Virus record (IMG/VR): IMGVR_UViG_3300020577_002429
Coordinates: 17,943-81,942 of that record
Reading direction: 5' to 3' (one strand)
DNA: 64,000 nt
Origin: a virus
Lineage: Duplodnaviria > Caudoviricetes
Shown here piece by piece: positions 5,126-63,371 of this stretch; positions within the stretch are counted from its first letter, which is position 1; each line of letters starts with the position of its first letter. The position numbers were made by a program, and so were the translations under genes. The notes below the pieces were generated by a model. That model worked only from the letters and a program-made list of their open reading frames with translations. It was not told the DNA's origin and did not search any database.

Positions 5126-5128
5126 TTA

Positions 5129-5196
5129 TTAGGGTGCAGGTAGTTGATTCTGATCAAATCCGCGAGACCTGATAACTGGATTTACGACGACCCTAA
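5129..5196 (+). ncRNA. candidate structured RNA with pseudoknot
   Basis: TTAGGGT/ACCCTAA, CAGGT/ACCTG, TTGAT/ATCAA and AAATCC/GGATTT pairings in a GC-richer intergenic stretch; strand not certain. Confidence 0.45.
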
Positions 5197-5230
5197 CAGC
5201 ATCTCTACTGTATATTAATTGAGACGAATG

Positions 5231-5256
5231 GCCTCCGTAAGAGGCTTTTTTATTTT
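5231..5256 (+). terminator. intrinsic terminator
   Basis: GCCTC-CGTAA-GAGGC followed by TTTTTTATTTT. Confidence 0.8.
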
Positions 5257-5257
5257 C

Positions 5258-5286
5258 TTGACATATTCAGGATTTTGATGTAAATT
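5258..5286 (+). promoter_or_regulatory. sigma70-type promoter
   Basis: TTGACA-17 nt-TAAATT directly after the terminator; implies the true start of the next gene is ATG 5302 (SD GAGGT). Confidence 0.65.
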
Positions 5287-12993: not shown

Positions 12994-13202
12994 TGTTTAA
13001 ATATGAATATACAATAACGCCAATAGGATTAGTAGGACATCAGTATGTATGCTCAGTATCTTTTGTTGAACAACAGTATGAAGAAGATGTACTTGACCTA
13101 CTAGCTACTAATGATTATCACTCAGATGGAAAGGTATTTATACCAAAACATGCAGTATTGATGTTCAGTAATCTTAAAGGTGAGTTTCTAAGTGAAGATT
13201 AA
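12990..13202 (+). CDS. hypothetical protein
   Basis: ORF track; ATGA coupling. Confidence 0.6.
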   Translation: MMFKYEYTITPIGLVGHQYVCSVSFVEQQYEEDVLDLLATNDYHSDGKVFIPKHAVLMFSNLKGEFLSED

Positions 13203-13515
13203 TGCTATTCAATGTGGTCAATGTGATGACATCATCTTTTCTAGAGCACACTATGACTATAGGAAGTGTTCTTGTGGTCATTGTGTTATAGACGGTTCAA
13301 AGATAGTAGGACTGTTTTTCACTTATGGACAAATAGAATTAAATATAACAAAAGAGATCGCTTACCAGGATTGGAATAATTCAAATGATAAGTATGGAAA
13401 AATTAGCAAAGATGAGCAACGTAGCCTTGGTATCAGCTTTGAAAAAAGTGGGATACAACATACCGAGCGAGATACCGAGATTTCAGCTACTGGAGACGAT
13501 AAGACAGTTGTTTAG
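13192..13515 (+). CDS. Zn-binding hypothetical protein
   Basis: CGQC...CSCG...IDG motif common in phages. Confidence 0.65.
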   Translation: MKINAIQCGQCDDIIFSRAHYDYRKCSCGHCVIDGSKIVGLFFTYGQIELNITKEIAYQDWNNSNDKYGKISKDEQRSLGISFEKSGIQHTERDTEISATGDDKTVV

Positions 13516-13591
13516 AGAAGGTAAGATTAAAAATAGTGATTTTGTTAGTGAGGAAGAAACGGAAGAAGGTTTTGCGAAAACCAATAGATAA
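13394..13591 (+). CDS. small helix-extension-helix (Rho-N/SAP-like) protein
   Basis: LAKMSNVALVSALKKVGYNIPSEIPRFQLLETI pattern; overlaps the tail of the upstream ORF. Confidence 0.4.
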   Translation: MEKLAKMSNVALVSALKKVGYNIPSEIPRFQLLETIRQLFREGKIKNSDFVSEEETEEGFAKTNR

Positions 13592-14030
13592 GAAAGCTTT
13601 CCTTATTCAAACATTACGTAGAGCATCGTATAGATGGCCGAGCCGTAATGCAGTATTAAAACGCGCTAGAGTAGCTAGAGGGCAGTATAAATGCGAGCTA
13701 TGCTCAGCTATAGTCGATAGACATAATATTAAGATGGATCACATACATGCTGTCGTAGATCCGGCGGTAGGTTGGGTATCACTGGACGTATTTGCTGATA
13801 GATTATTCTGCGATGAGTCCGGCTGGCAAGCCCTGTGCGTTCCATGTCACTCATTAAAAACTAAAGATGAGAATGAGATTCGTAAACAAACTCGCAAAGA
13901 AGCAAACGAAGCTAGAAAAGTAGCACGTAAGAAAGCTAAGAAGAAAGATCCAAAGACAAATAAACACACAGGTTCATCACTAGATGATTTCTTATCTGAG
14001 TGTGGCATAATTATTGAAGATAAAAAGTAA
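13536..14030 (+). CDS. HNH endonuclease
   Basis: YKCELC...MDHIHAVV...QALCVPCHSLKT; likely start TTG 13572. Confidence 0.85.
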   Translation: MILLVRKKRKKVLRKPIDKKAFLIQTLRRASYRWPSRNAVLKRARVARGQYKCELCSAIVDRHNIKMDHIHAVVDPAVGWVSLDVFADRLFCDESGWQALCVPCHSLKTKDENEIRKQTRKEANEARKVARKKAKKKDPKTNKHTGSSLDDFLSECGIIIEDKK

Positions 14031-14037
14031 TAACCAC

Positions 14038-14066
14038 TTGACATTATTGATATTGTATGGTATATC
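14038..14066 (+). promoter_or_regulatory. sigma70-type promoter (imperfect -10)
   Basis: TTGACA-17 nt-TATATC with TGn; lacks the conserved -7 T. Confidence 0.55.
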
Positions 14067-14072
14067 TATTGC

Positions 14073-14148
14073 ATACGGTATTTTCTCCTAAGTATCGTGT
14101 CCCTCCACAGGGCAGCTCAGTTTACCTCCACTGGGTTGCCCGATTTTT
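14073..14148 (+). ncRNA. candidate anti-Shine-Dalgarno small RNA or structured leader
   Basis: Two hairpins with loops UCUCCU and UUUACCUCCA, linker CCCUCCACA, then a T-run. Confidence 0.55.
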
Positions 14149-14158
14149 ATAAGGATAT

Positions 14159-14428
14159 ATGAAAGATTTTGAATTTCCATTCGCTACAGACAAAACAAAT
14201 GGTAAACCATCGGTAACGCTATTCTTTGCTTATGTTGCATTTTTAATCGCATTAGGTGTAACTATCTATCTTACAGTAAAAGATGTAGTAGCAGGATCTA
14301 TAGCGTCATTAATGTTATTTTTTGGATGTTTATTAATGTACCGCATGAGGGCTATTGATAAATTTAAAGTCAATCTTCAAGAACGATCTTTTGAAGCTGA
14401 AGATACTCCAGATGAGGAAAACAAATGA
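14159..14428 (+). CDS. two-TM holin-like membrane protein
   Basis: Two predicted TM helices, charged C-tail, 89 aa. Confidence 0.5.
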   Translation: MKDFEFPFATDKTNGKPSVTLFFAYVAFLIALGVTIYLTVKDVVAGSIASLMLFFGCLLMYRMRAIDKFKVNLQERSFEAEDTPDEENK

Positions 14429-14823
14429 GAAATTACATTATTACAGGACTTGTATGTTTAGTCATTGGAGTAGCCGCTGGTAGCAGTTTATTTCCTAAAG
14501 TAAAAGAGAAGACTGTTGAGACAGAAGTCGAGCGAGTAGTTAAAGACGTACAGACTGTAATCAAGGTAGTCACTAGACCGGATGGAACGAAGGAAGAAGT
14601 TACAACAATCGTCGATAAGTCTAAACAGAGTACAGACAAGACAAGCACTAAGATTATCGCTAAGAATGACTGGCACATTTCAGCATCAGGATCTCGCACT
14701 TTTACAGATAGTAGCATGACATATACTTTACAAGTAGAGCGTAGAATTATTGGTGATGTATTTTTAGGTGCATCAGTTAACAGTGATAAACAAGTTGGAT
14801 TAACCGTAGGATTGGAGTTTTAA
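14425..14823 (+). CDS. membrane-anchored protein with C-terminal beta-strands (spanin-like)
   Basis: N-terminal TM/signal; KEKTVETEV linker; C-term VGLTVGLEF resembling an outer-membrane beta-signal. Confidence 0.45.
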   Translation: MRNYIITGLVCLVIGVAAGSSLFPKVKEKTVETEVERVVKDVQTVIKVVTRPDGTKEEVTTIVDKSKQSTDKTSTKIIAKNDWHISASGSRTFTDSSMTYTLQVERRIIGDVFLGASVNSDKQVGLTVGLEF

Positions 14824-15249
14824 ATGAGAGCAGTAGAATTAAATGCTATATATGGTGATTTTTTAAATTCATATACAACACCCTTTAAGATTGACTTCTT
14901 GAATGATAAAGGTATAACCAAAGTCCCAGAAGATAATTTTGGCGCTTTTCAATTAAACCTACCAGCATCTTCTAATATAAAACTAGAAAAAACTAAGTCT
15001 GGTGGAGTACTTGTTAGATATTGCTTTGGGTTTGACTTCGCAAGAAAGACATTCTCTGATTATAAACAAGGAATTAGATTTCTATCAGTAGTTCAGAATG
15101 AAATGCTGTTAGCAATATCACCTTGGATTGATTGGTCAAAACCAACAAATAATCTATTTCAAAGACCAGGTATGCCAAATGCTTTCTTTTTAGAGCTAGA
15201 CAGTCATGCTGGAATAGAATTAAGAGCGTACTACGATGGATCAATTTAA
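14824..15249 (+). CDS. internally deleted paralogue of the major capsid protein (mini-MCP)
   Basis: YGD..N, GAFQLN...K....K......R and FQRPGMPNAFFLELDSHAGIELRAYYD match the MCP at 39100..40329. Confidence 0.85.
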   Translation: MRAVELNAIYGDFLNSYTTPFKIDFLNDKGITKVPEDNFGAFQLNLPASSNIKLEKTKSGGVLVRYCFGFDFARKTFSDYKQGIRFLSVVQNEMLLAISPWIDWSKPTNNLFQRPGMPNAFFLELDSHAGIELRAYYDGSI

Positions 15250-15703
15250 GGATTTATTAGACATAGCATCATCAGCTAGCAATTTAACTAATTGCGATTT
15301 TGATACATTCCTGAAGGAAAAGGGATTTGATGAATCTGATACTTCTAAGCGTATTCTTATTCAGGACTTATTTTTATTCTACACTCACTGGTATTACAAT
15401 AAGTATCAGAAGATACCGCACAGATCAAACTTCGCTAGAGGTAGTGAAATATTAAAATTATACAAATTAAGACAAAGATATCCAGGAACAAAGAAGCTAG
15501 CATGGGGGATAAGATGCTCGGCTTCATTTCGTATTGCGTATTTACTATTTAAAAAGGATACCCCCGAATGGCAACAAAAGCTAACAAAAATGTTAAACGC
15601 AAAAAAAGCACACCGAGCAAGAAAAATAAACCGCAAGGAGCAACGTCAGCTAGAAAAACTAATAAGCTCGCTGGCCTCAACCCAAGACTCTTCTCAAAAA
15701 TAA
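15236..15703 (+). CDS. hypothetical basic protein (possible winged-helix DNA binder)
   Basis: ORF track; function uncertain. Confidence 0.55.
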   Translation: MDQFKDLLDIASSASNLTNCDFDTFLKEKGFDESDTSKRILIQDLFLFYTHWYYNKYQKIPHRSNFARGSEILKLYKLRQRYPGTKKLAWGIRCSASFRIAYLLFKKDTPEWQQKLTKMLNAKKAHRARKINRKEQRQLEKLISSLASTQDSSQK

Positions 15704-36888: not shown

Positions 36889-36917
36889 TTGACTCCTATA
36901 TAAATATATGTTAGATT
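36889..36917 (+). promoter_or_regulatory. sigma70-type promoter of the plus-strand island
   Basis: TTGACT-17 nt-TAGATT with TGn. Confidence 0.7.
36902..36913 (-). promoter_or_regulatory. putative late promoter motif (variant)
   Basis: TAACATATATTT, one mismatch. Confidence 0.55.
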
Positions 36918-36947
36918 GTATACAGACTTTAGCCAGTCGAATACTTT

Positions 36948-36987
36948 AGGGGAGGGAGCTTACTGACGTTACTCTCTCCTCTTTTTT
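36948..36987 (+). terminator. leader terminator/attenuator
   Basis: AGGGGAGGGAG/CTCTCTCCTCT 11-bp stem followed by a T-run, just before GGAGG-ATG 36996. Confidence 0.65.
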
Positions 36988-36995
36988 GGAGGAAT

Positions 36996-62160: not shown

Positions 62161-63371
62161 TGTATAATGTTTTAGAAGATACTATTAGAAAGATGATAAC
62201 TAATTATCCATTTTATGCTAATTTAATTAGTATTATGGATAAAAAGTTAACGGAGGATGTACCTATTGCTGCGGTAAGTATTACTTCTCGCATCAATCTG
62301 ATGATCAATCCTAAAACATTTAACAAAATGCCAGAAGCCGTAAGAGTTGGAATATTATTACACGAGTGTTACCACATTATTCATAATCACATCGGTCGTA
62401 GTAAGAGTGTTTCAAAAAGTTTCAATAAGGCGCTGAACATCGCAGCTGATCGCGCCATTAACGAACACTTACACATCCTGAGCAAGAATAATAAAATTAC
62501 AGCCACTATTCCTGATAGTTTAGAAGTAGAACTAAAAGGAAAAAAAGAAACCATGAAGTTTGTCACAAAGAAAAACTTCCAAGACACTTATCAAGGTAAA
62601 ACAATTAAAGATAATGAAACAATGGAATACTATTATAAGTTTCTAAAGGATAATGCTGAAAAGGGTGATGGACCTGGCGACTTCGGTGGTGACATGGACA
62701 CTGTTGATGACCATGAAGGTTGGGGAGATAGCGCATCGCAGGAGCAAGTAGAAGAAGTTACAAAAAATGCTATGAATAAGGCGGCTCAACGAACAAAAGC
62801 TGGTGACATTCCTGGAGATGTTCAACAAGCTCTTGACAAAATGAACAACAGTACTGTAAACTGGAAGAATGTGTTACAGCGTTTTGTTGCTAAGTGTGTT
62901 GATATGAGTATTGACAGCTCAAGAAAGCGACGCAGCCGAAGATTTAAACTTATGCACCCAGGCACAATCAAGGAACCTATTTTAAAATTAGGCATTGCTG
63001 TTGATACTTCTGGTAGTGTTGCTGATAAATACTTGCAGCAATTCTTCGGTGAAATTAATAAAATTCATAATATGGGTATTGAAATTTATATTGTTCAAGC
63101 CGATTATGTTGTACAAAGTGCTGAGAAGTATGATCCGAAAAAGCCGTTAGTAGCAAAAGGTCGTGGGGGGACAGCATTCCAACCGGCAATTGACGCTCTA
63201 GAAAAAATTGAGTGCGATAGTTACATCTATTTTACTGATGGTGAAACCGGAAGTGAGGAGCCTAAATCAAAAAGACCTATATTATGGGCGTTATGTCCTA
63301 GTTATACAATTCCTACTGGATATTCAGAAAAGTCTACTATTAAAATTACCTTACCGGAAGATAATAAATAG
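62160..63371 (+). CDS. putative metallopeptidase-VWA protein (DUF2201-like)
   Basis: LLHECYH; MIDAS VDTSGS, GRGGTAF, YFTDG. Confidence 0.85.
   Translation: MYNVLEDTIRKMITNYPFYANLISIMDKKLTEDVPIAAVSITSRINLMINPKTFNKMPEAVRVGILLHECYHIIHNHIGRSKSVSKSFNKALNIAADRAINEHLHILSKNNKITATIPDSLEVELKGKKETMKFVTKKNFQDTYQGKTIKDNETMEYYYKFLKDNAEKGDGPGDFGGDMDTVDDHEGWGDSASQEQVEEVTKNAMNKAAQRTKAGDIPGDVQQALDKMNNSTVNWKNVLQRFVAKCVDMSIDSSRKRRSRRFKLMHPGTIKEPILKLGIAVDTSGSVADKYLQQFFGEINKIHNMGIEIYIVQADYVVQSAEKYDPKKPLVAKGRGGTAFQPAIDALEKIECDSYIYFTDGETGSEEPKSKRPILWALCPSYTIPTGYSEKSTIKITLPEDNK

What the first reader, a model, noticed from the sequence alone, without database searches (positions are those of the whole stretch)
14038..14148. 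Putative small RNA presenting three anti-Shine-Dalgarno motifs
Seen: after TTGACA-17-TATATC there is a roughly 76-nt unit. Hairpin 1 (14073-14100) has loop UCUCCU (complementary to AGGAGA). A single-stranded linker CCCUCCACA follows (complementary to UGUGGAGGG). Hairpin 2 (11 bp, 14110-14141) has loop UUUACCUCCA (complementary to UGGAGGUAAA), then a T-run. Three exposed anti-SD motifs in 60 nt of an AT-rich genome is unlikely by chance. Established: alphaproteobacterial AbcR1/2 and 'cuckoo' sRNAs and Firmicute RsaE/RoxS repress many mRNAs through C-rich anti-SD loops. Inference: a phage sRNA that broadly occludes SD-led translation (host shut-off, or holding back late mRNAs), or a cis leader gating the downstream holin-like/spanin-like/mini-MCP genes.
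Basis: partly seen in the sequence, partly recalled or inferred. Interest (0 to 1): 0.75.

Follow-up and report, generated by a model that had tools for sequence, protein, structure and literature searches.

The report
Conserved phage RNA with anti-ribosome-site loops
Between a promoter and a small membrane-protein gene, an uncultured 82-kb phage and at least seven related lineages keep a ~76-base two-hairpin RNA whose open loops match the complement of ribosome-binding sites, so it is very likely a real, undescribed regulatory RNA, although its target and even its transcript remain unproven.

Summary
At 14038-14148 there is a TTGACA-17-TATATC promoter with an extended -10 TG. An 11-bp hairpin follows with loop UCUCCU, then the linker CCCUCCACA, then a 12-bp GC-rich hairpin with loop UUACCUCC and a U-run. 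The Shine-Dalgarno (SD) site and ATG of an 89-aa two-TM protein come next.

The element is not chance.
- It has no Rfam or tRNA match.
- It lies upstream of homologues of the 89-aa gene in eight sequence-divergent lineages.
- The stems are replaced by compensatory changes: 20 of 22 pairs change on both sides.
- The CUCC-type motifs stay unpaired: 12 exposed sites against 2.6 expected.
- In close relatives the RNA is 97-100% identical, while flanking genes are 73-93%.

Distant relatives and the sister phage have the same promoter abutting the gene with no RNA. The module therefore looks like an insertion into a leader.

My best reading is a promoter-proximal, terminated ~76-nt RNA. It attenuates the downstream cassette and acts through CU-rich seeds on SD-like sequences. 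The three-site layout matches Listeria LhrC, and the genesis resembles phage StxS. Trans versus cis action, and the targets, are unresolved. "Broad translational shut-off" is unsupported.

This scan has noted other anti-SD-loop RNAs in unrelated phages.

The parts
14038..14043 (+). -35 hexamer TTGACA
   Evidence: Kept as TTGACA, TTGACT or TTTACA at the same distance from the RNA in all relatives. Belongs to a phage-wide family, TTGAC[AT]-N14-TG.
14058..14066 (+). Extended -10, TGg-TATATC
   Evidence: TG and the -11 A are invariant in all lineages. The last base of the hexamer varies (C, A or T).
14073..14148 (+). Predicted ~76-nt RNA, from the inferred start A14073 to the end of the U-run
   Evidence: The start is inferred from the promoter geometry (7 nt after the -10). 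Fold. Covariance models R1 and R2 find a single copy in the genome.
14073..14100 (+). Hairpin 1 (11 bp), beginning at the predicted +1
   Evidence: All nine modelled pairs show changes on both sides across relatives.
14084..14089 (+). Loop 1, UCUCCU (anti-SD-like)
   Evidence: A (U/G)CUCC motif is present in loop 1 of every lineage that has hairpin 1.
14101..14109 (+). Single-stranded linker CCCUCCACA
   Evidence: The C-rich motif is kept in L030, L033 and L026, and absent in L027, L034 and L039.
14110..14141 (+). Hairpin 2 (12 bp, -19.8 kcal/mol): the terminator stem-loop
   Evidence: strongest terminator-like hairpin my scan listed; 10 of 12 pairs with changes on both sides.
14122..14129 (+). 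Loop 2, UUACCUCC (anti-SD-like)
   Evidence: The loop reads ACCUCC, GCCUCC, GUCUCC or GCCUCA in relatives. L039 lacks it.
14144..14148 (+). U-run of the intrinsic terminator
   Evidence: A U5-U6 run follows hairpin 2 in nearly all relatives; L034 has the weaker UAUUCUUU.
14151..14155 (+). Shine-Dalgarno AAGGA of the downstream gene
   Evidence: There is no room for another promoter between the terminator and this site.
14159..14428 (+). 89-aa gene: two predicted TM helices and a charged C-terminus. The RNA travels with this gene.
   Evidence: 20 homologues; Atlas: putative membrane protein, viral. No Pfam or PHROG match.

Best explanation
The element is a self-contained transcription unit embedded in the leader of a small accessory cassette.

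1. Host sigma-70 RNA polymerase starts at about A14073 from an extended -10 promoter (inferred).
2. The nascent RNA folds into a hairpin that begins at +1, a short linker and a strong intrinsic terminator.
3. Most transcripts therefore end at 14144-14148 as a ~76-nt RNA. The read-through fraction is the only visible source of mRNA for the 89-aa membrane protein and the genes behind it. The element thus attenuates that cassette (inferred from layout).
4. The released RNA displays one to three CU-rich motifs with a CUCC core, complementary to the GGAG of Shine-Dalgarno sites. They sit in loop 1, the linker and the terminator loop.
5. The most likely action is base pairing with G-rich ribosome-binding regions of target mRNAs to block initiation. 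This is what the three-site Listeria sRNA LhrC and other C-rich-seed sRNAs do.

What is shown here: structure, conservation, covariation, motif exposure, promoter and terminator signals.
What is inferred: that it is transcribed, that it terminates, that it pairs with SD sites, and the identity of its targets.

My sub-probabilities: real conserved structured RNA element, 0.9. Gives a discrete terminated transcript, 0.7. The CUCC motifs are the functional contacts, 0.7. They act in trans on other mRNAs, 0.4.
For: - Fold: -30.9 kcal/mol, z = -6.1.
- Position: the same promoter, 5' hairpin and terminator unit precedes 89-aa-gene homologues in eight divergent lineages. Each folds alone into this architecture, except L038, which has lost hairpin 1.
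- Model transfer: a model trained on close relatives found L034, L039, L026 and L027. The second model then found the untrained L033, L030 and L038 at the right place.
- Covariation: 20 of 22 pairs change on both sides. 93% of cells are paired, against 35-42% when partners are slid, and 0 of 500 shuffles reach the observed values.
- Strand: the G-U pairs mark the + strand RNA rather than a DNA palindrome.
- Motifs: exposed CUCC/CCUC sites number 12, against 2.55 +/- 1.43 in shuffles. Other terminator loops in the phage lack them.
- Selection: the RNA is 97-100% identical where flanking genes are 73-93%.
- Promoter: it belongs to a family of 25 TTGAC[AT]-N14-TG sites.
- Context: in L026 the upstream gene is divergent, so the terminator does not serve an upstream operon.
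- Coding: no conserved peptide.
- SD usage: the phage uses SD sites heavily; 74% of genes score at or below -5 kcal/mol.
[quoted passage not shown] StxS shows that a phage promoter-proximal terminated RNA can act as an sRNA (PMC7547250).
Against: - There are no expression data, and the host is unknown.
- No outstanding target exists in the phage. Initiation regions pair only slightly better than internal windows, there is no late/early bias, and the best genome-wide hit (10 bp at 63158-63167) lies in Gly-Gly codons.
- Motif number varies from one to three, and L039 has none in the terminator loop.
- All copies were found through the neighbouring gene. The strict linkage may therefore be ascertainment, or it may indicate a cis role.
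- The covariation alignment was fitted to the model.
- The -10 hexamer is imperfect.
- The sister phage G001 does without the RNA.
Confidence: 0.45

Rival explanations
1. The element is a purely cis-acting leader. The terminator attenuates transcription of the membrane-protein cassette. In read-through mRNA the 5' hairpin stabilises the message, and the C-rich motifs fold back on the gene's own Shine-Dalgarno site. Translation of a potentially toxic, holin-like protein is thereby held low or timed.
For: - In every lineage found, the RNA sits between the promoter and the 89-aa gene. Relatives without it have the promoter abutting the gene.
- No other promoter fits between the terminator and the SD.
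- In L030 and L033 the linker UCCUUU/UCCU pairs with the SD AAAGGA, and opening the SD costs 2-4 kcal/mol more with the leader present.
- L027 has a CUCUU/AAGAG hairpin over its SD.
Against: - In this phage and in L015, L034, L038 and L039 the leader changes SD opening energy by no more than about 1 kcal/mol.
- The local SD AAGGAU matches the motifs over only 3-4 nt, whereas the motifs fit GGAGG/GGAGA.
- Three redundant sites are more than one SD needs.
- Loop-SD pseudoknots were not modelled.
Confidence: 0.25
2. The element is an antitermination-controlled or protein-bound leader. As with lambda PR'-tR', the promoter fires constantly and the terminator blocks the cassette until a phage or host factor lets polymerase read through. 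That factor could be an antiterminator or an RNA-binding protein recognising the C-rich loops. The short RNA would be a by-product.
For: - A promoter-proximal strong terminator lies directly before a small two-TM membrane-protein gene.
- Single-stranded motifs conserved in loops are typical protein or RNA contact sites.
- The StxS paper describes this layout in lambdoid phages (PMC7547250).
- The phage encodes sigma-like factors of its own (note e1-5892799, seen, unchecked).
Against: - No Q-type antiterminator family was detected in the genome. PF03589 and PF06530 were absent; the PF06323 search was uninformative.
- I know of no bacterial or phage antiterminator that recognises CUCC loops (from my own knowledge).
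- The cassette is not shown to be a lysis cassette, and no endolysin is adjacent.
Confidence: 0.15
3. It is an ordinary terminator of the upstream HNH-endonuclease operon, next to a chance promoter-like site and chance C-rich motifs.
For: - Hairpin 2 lies 80 nt after the stop codon of the HNH gene and would also stop upstream transcription.
- Promoter-like hexamers are common in AT-rich DNA: 13 found against 15.5 expected.
Against: - The whole unit, including the promoter spacing, hairpin 1 and the loop motifs, is conserved across lineages whose stems share no sequence.
- It is more conserved than the flanking genes.
- It follows the downstream gene, not the upstream one, which varies between lineages and is divergent in L026.
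- Exposed-motif excess.
Confidence: 0.04

Closest known systems
LhrC1-5 sRNAs of Listeria monocytogenes (PMC4132741)
   Same: [quoted passage not shown] All three can bind the G-rich SD region of a target mRNA. This phage's RNA has the same three positions occupied; relatives L027, L034 and L039 even read CUCCC.
   Different: No sequence or model similarity: there is no Rfam match even at E <= 10. The element is ~76 nt, single-copy and phage-borne. It sits in the leader of a gene rather than standing alone. Pairing with any target is untested.
StxS / lambda 6S RNA (PR'-tR' short transcript of lambdoid phages; PMC7547250)
   Same: A phage promoter is followed at once by an intrinsic terminator, giving a short RNA (74 nt for StxS) that is both the leader of downstream genes and a trans-acting sRNA.
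   Different: StxS depends on Q antitermination and Hfq and works through a different seed. No Q homologue was found here. This phage looks virulent and its host is unknown.
C-rich-seed sRNAs RsaE/RoxS and S. aureus RNAIII, and the alphaproteobacterial cuckoo/CcsR and AbcR families
   Same: They have unpaired C-rich motifs in loops that pair with SD sequences and block initiation. The motif class is cited in PMC4132741; the rest is from my own knowledge.
   Different: These are different families, lengths and hosts, and none matched in Rfam. The core here is CUCC/CCUCC rather than UCCC/CCCC.
c4 antisense RNA of phages P1/P7
   Same: A phage-encoded ~77-nt RNA made from the leader of the operon it controls. 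Its loops pair around the ribosome-binding site of a downstream gene (review PMC12197685).
   Different: c4 has long, specific complementarity to its own operon. Here the complementarity to the downstream SD is only 3-4 nt.

Membership tests
LhrC family (Listeria) | Sequence and structure homology to the family's covariance model | tested here: not met
   The Rfam 15 scan of the window found nothing at gathering scores. The scan of 13980-14220 at E <= 10 gave only three chance-level hits to unrelated families.
LhrC family (Listeria) | CU-rich motifs exposed in loop A, the inter-hairpin single strand and the terminator loop | tested here: met
   UCUCCU, CCCUCC and ACCUCC are all unpaired in the MFE and centroid structures. 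P about 0.003 in shuffles. The layout is as described in PMC4132741.
LhrC family (Listeria) | Multicopy chromosomal genes | tested here: not met
   There is a single copy in the phage genome, and none in G001-G004.
Base-pairing anti-SD sRNA (functional class) | A discrete stable transcript that pairs with SD regions and represses translation | not testable with these tools
   No expression data and no known host. Only phage initiation regions could be scanned, and there was no outstanding target.
Intrinsic (Rho-independent) terminator | GC-rich stem-loop followed directly by a U-run on the transcribed strand | tested here: met
   12-bp stem with 7 GC pairs, -19.8 kcal/mol, then GAUUUUU. The feature is kept in all relatives.
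Sigma-70 extended -10 promoter | -35 TTGACA, 17-bp spacer, TGn, -10 TAnnnT | tested here: inconclusive
   The -35, spacer, TG and -12T/-11A are present and conserved. The last -10 base is C, so the consensus scan did not list the site. Promoter activity was not tested.
Lambdoid PR'-tR' / Q antitermination leader | Promoter-proximal terminator before late or lysis genes, plus a Q-family antiterminator gene | tested here: not met
   The layout is present, but PF03589 and PF06530 are absent from the genome. The PF06323 search was uninformative. The lysis role of the cassette is unproven.
Known riboswitch or cis-regulatory leader, or tRNA-like element | Match to a curated model | tested here: not met

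The most novel reading that the evidence does not exclude
The RNA is not a gene-specific regulator. It would be a phage-made mimic of the 3' tail of 16S rRNA, with ACCUCC/CCUCC presented two or three times. Made in bulk from a strong early promoter, it would compete for SD sequences, or for factors that bind the anti-SD tail, and so re-weight translation of the whole infected cell. Together with the other phage anti-SD-loop RNAs noted by this scan, that would be a general and so far undescribed phage strategy.
Probability: 0.08. Interest if true: 0.85.

Novelty: new member of a known kind. Interest (0 to 1): 0.6.

Why it matters
Very few regulatory RNAs are known from virulent or uncultured phages. 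Those that are known come almost entirely from lambdoid prophages and from P1, P4 and P22.

This element defines a new RNA family with clear covariation and selected single-stranded motifs. It sits at a junction where one signal sets both the output of a short RNA and the dose of a membrane-protein cassette.

If it pairs with ribosome-binding sites, it would show that the "redundant CU-rich seed" design of Gram-positive sRNAs has arisen independently in phages. It would also give a compact, testable model (76 nt, three mutable sites) for how phages tune translation. If it acts only in cis, it is still a tidy example of a leader attenuator inserted between an ancestral promoter and its gene.

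Tried and rejected
- **blastn against the phage collection.** Querying 13000-15500 found no match.
- **Exact 16-mer scan of IMG/VR.** It returned two GC-rich phages where the match is the reverse of an SD before a start codon, so chance.
- **IMG/VR searches with the 89-aa protein.** They found nothing. Searches with the 132-aa protein found only relatives that lack the intergenic gap.
- **Sister phage G001 (capsid protein 85% identical).** It lacks the element. A 48-nt gap with the same kind of promoter precedes its own cassette.
- **Plain MAFFT alignment of the divergent RNAs.** It was structurally wrong, so I used model-guided alignments instead.
- **tRNA and Rfam.** Nothing.
- **Small-protein reading.** The ORFs across the element differ in frame and length between lineages and have no SD. 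The compensatory changes in L015 truncate the 31-aa ORF.
- **Minus-strand reading** (GGAGG as real SD sites on the other strand). No start codon follows at a suitable distance, apart from a 2-codon ATG-CAA-TAG.
- **DNA palindrome or protein operator.** The G-U pairs and the one-sided U-run argue for + strand RNA.
- **Linker as antiterminator against hairpin 2.** This is convincing only in L026 (CCCUC duplicated) and not general.
- **Preferential targeting of late mRNAs.** No difference.
- **Host assignment.** A distant homologue lies on an 81-kb contig binned as a Bacteroidales MAG. I treat that as a mis-binned phage, because this phage uses SD sites heavily.

Full report
**1. What is there**

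The window is part of an 81,942-bp IMG/VR phage record (35% GC, about 98% complete). The 128-nt gap at 14031-14158 lies between an HNH-endonuclease gene (13536-14030; PHROG HNH families) and an 89-aa ORF (14159-14428).

Reading the sequence:
- TTGACA at 14038-43.
- A 17-nt spacer ending in TGg.
- TATATC at 14061-66.

Seven bases later comes an 11-bp hairpin (14073-14100, loop UCUCCU). The linker CCCUCCACA follows, then a 12-bp hairpin (14110-14141, loop UUACCUCC), then GAUUUUU. SD AAGGA is at 14151 and ATG at 14159.

RNAfold gives exactly this structure as both MFE and centroid: -30.9 kcal/mol, z = -6.1. The terminator scan lists hairpin 2. At -19.8 kcal/mol it is the strongest terminator-like hairpin that my scan of the genome listed.

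The only difference is one extra closing pair in hairpin 2.

**2. Is the motif cluster more than chance?**

- CCTCC occurs 11 times on the + strand of the whole genome, and two of these are here.
- No other + strand 70-nt window holds three CCTCC/CTCCT pentamers.
- In dinucleotide shuffles of the RNA that were refolded, three exposed CUCC/CCUC sites appear with P about 0.003.
- Loops of the other terminator-like hairpins in the phage carry no such motif.

**3. The promoter**

The consensus scan skipped this site because the -10 ends in C. However, the phage has a clear promoter family, (c)TTGAC[AT]-N14-TGn-hexamer. 25 of 119 TTGAC[AT] sites carry TG at that spacing, against about 6% expected. 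Most lie just upstream of + strand genes.

The site at 14038 is a typical member. In relatives the -35, the TG and the first two -10 bases are kept, while the last -10 base varies. The predicted start, A14073, is the first base of hairpin 1.

**4. Relatives**

DNA searches of phage collections gave nothing useful. The sister phage G001 (capsid protein 85% identical) lacks the element. At the syntenic place a 48-nt gap holds TTGACA-N14-TGg-CATACT directly before its gene.

The 89-aa protein has 20 homologue clusters in metagenomes. Their contigs fall into two groups.

*Close relatives* have the same 128-nt gap. There the 76-nt RNA is 97-100% identical, while the 89-aa gene is 73-88% and the end of the upstream gene 80-93%. 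The exception is L015, at 92%. All six of its changes are compensatory or wobble changes in hairpin 2.

*Divergent lineages* are L026, L027, L030/31, L033, L034 and L039. They have unalignable stems but the same plan: promoter, a hairpin starting at about +1, a linker, a GC-rich hairpin, U5-6 (weaker in L034), then the SD. L038 has lost hairpin 1.

The most distant homologues (L032, L036/37, L041; 35-42% identity) have the promoter abutting the gene.

The module therefore looks like an insertion between an ancestral promoter and its gene, kept in one clade. In L026 the upstream gene is on the other strand, so the terminator is not there to end an upstream operon.

**5. Covariation**

Model R1, built from four close relatives, found L034, L039, L026 and L027 at the right coordinates. 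Model R2, built from those, then found the untrained L033, L030 and L038 as its next-best hits, and nothing in G001-G004.

On the 11-sequence alignment:
- 20 of 22 pairs show changes on both sides.
- 93% of cells are paired, against 35-42% when partners are slid by 1-3 columns.
- 0 of 500 shuffles reach the observed values.

Two cautions apply. The alignment is fitted to the model. The L038 "hairpin 1" row is really promoter DNA.

Independent single-sequence folds give the same architecture, with z from -2.7 to -5.6. Frequent G-U pairs and the one-sided U-run show that the + strand RNA is the folded species.

**6. The motifs are selected**

| Position | Motif | Lineages |
|---|---|---|
| Loop 1 | (U/G)CUCC | every lineage that has hairpin 1 |
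| Terminator loop | ACCUCC, GCCUCC, GUCUCC or GCCUCA | all but L039 |
| Linker | CCCUCC, UCCUCC or CCCUC | four lineages; none in three |

Summed over seven lineages, exposed sites number 12 against 2.55 +/- 1.43 (maximum 7) in shuffles. The lineages are kin, so this is not a probability. But the stems around the motifs have been fully replaced.

**7. Not coding, not a known RNA**

There is no tRNA or tmRNA. There is no Rfam match at gathering scores or at E <= 10. ORFs over the element differ in frame and length between lineages and have no SD.

**8. Cis or trans?**

*Cis.* With the leader present, the energy to open the downstream SD rises by 2-4 kcal/mol only in L030 and L033, and by about 1 or less elsewhere, including here. 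The local SD, AAGGAU, matches the motifs over just 3-4 nt.

*Trans.* The phage uses SD sites heavily; 74% of genes score at or below -5 kcal/mol against the 16S tail. But no phage initiation region stands out, and late and early genes do not differ (P = 0.56). The best genome-wide match is 10 bp at 63158-63167. It lies inside GGG-GGG glycine codons, so it is probably chance.

The host is unknown, so host targets could not be tested.

Two Q-type antiterminator families are absent; a third search was uninformative.

**9. Comparison with known systems**

- *LhrC of Listeria* has CU-rich motifs in loop A, the inter-hairpin single strand and the terminator loop. Any of the three can bind the SD region of lapB (PMC4132741). 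That is the same design, but there is no homology.
- *StxS* shows that a phage promoter-proximal terminated RNA can double as an sRNA (PMC7547250).
- *c4 of P1/P7* is a leader-derived RNA that blocks a downstream ribosome-binding site (PMC12197685).

My library searches turned up no paper describing a phage RNA with redundant anti-SD motifs. One study of a Listeria phage looked for UCCC motifs in its abundant RNAs and found none (PMC12282133). Notes from this scan list similar, unrelated candidates in other phages. These are unchecked AI notes, so they are leads rather than evidence.

**10. Verdict**

The element is a real, conserved, previously uncatalogued phage RNA. The most likely mechanism is a terminated ~76-nt RNA that attenuates the downstream cassette and acts through CU-rich seeds on SD-like sequences. 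I put trans action at about 0.4, cis-only at about 0.25, and a protein or antitermination role at about 0.15. "Broad shut-off of SD-led translation" remains a low-probability but interesting reading.

Noticed in passing
window 36889-36995 (+): A second leader with the same plan. Promoter TTGACT-N14-TGT-TAGATT, then a hairpin with a G-rich 5' arm (AGGGGAGGGAG) and a CU-rich 3' arm (CUCUCUCCUCU), then U6, SD GGAGG and ATG 36996. Its G-rich arm holds the only GGAGGG on the + strand and is complementary to the linker UCCCUCC of the RNA studied here. The fold z-score is only -1.2.
   Followed up: partly
whole genome; for example window 1442, 9446, 11198, 40381, 52473, 57435, 60983 (+): A phage-wide promoter family, (c)TTGAC[AT]-N14-TGn-TAnnnT: 25 sites, mostly just upstream of + strand genes.
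   Followed up: partly
L026:2340-2380, L030 and L033 about 2335-2375, L027 about 2350-2385: In the divergent lineages, an inverted GTCAAG...TTGAC pair lies about 20 nt upstream of the -35 of the RNA's promoter. It could be a back-to-back divergent promoter (in L026 the upstream gene is on the other strand) or an operator-like repeat. This phage lacks it.
   Followed up: no
L020-L023, L026, L027 (between the 89-aa and 132-aa gene homologues): Relatives carry different inserted genes at this junction: a 352-aa protein (faint CapR hit), a 221-aa Endonuclease_7 protein, or 166-aa and 224-aa proteins. It is a hot spot for gene gain.
   Followed up: no
window 5126-5286 (+): An intergenic region with the usual order: a structured stretch, the terminator GGCCUCCGUAAGAGGCC plus U6, then promoter TTGACA-17-TAAATT before gene 5302. 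Here the CCUCC is paired inside the stem. Another reader already noted this region as a possible pseudoknot RNA.
   Followed up: no
L041 (CAIWIS010000237.1, an 81,385-bp contig): A contig of phage-genome size, binned as an uncultured Bacteroidales MAG from Lake Erken, carries a 35%-identical homologue of the 89-aa gene behind an HNH gene and a TTGACA-TG promoter. It is probably a mis-binned related phage.
   Followed up: partly
window 14425-14823 (+): The 132-aa protein has an N-terminal TM or signal-like segment. Its beta-rich C-terminus ends in ...GLTVGLEF, which resembles an outer-membrane-protein C-terminal signature. It has no Pfam or PHROG match.
   Followed up: no
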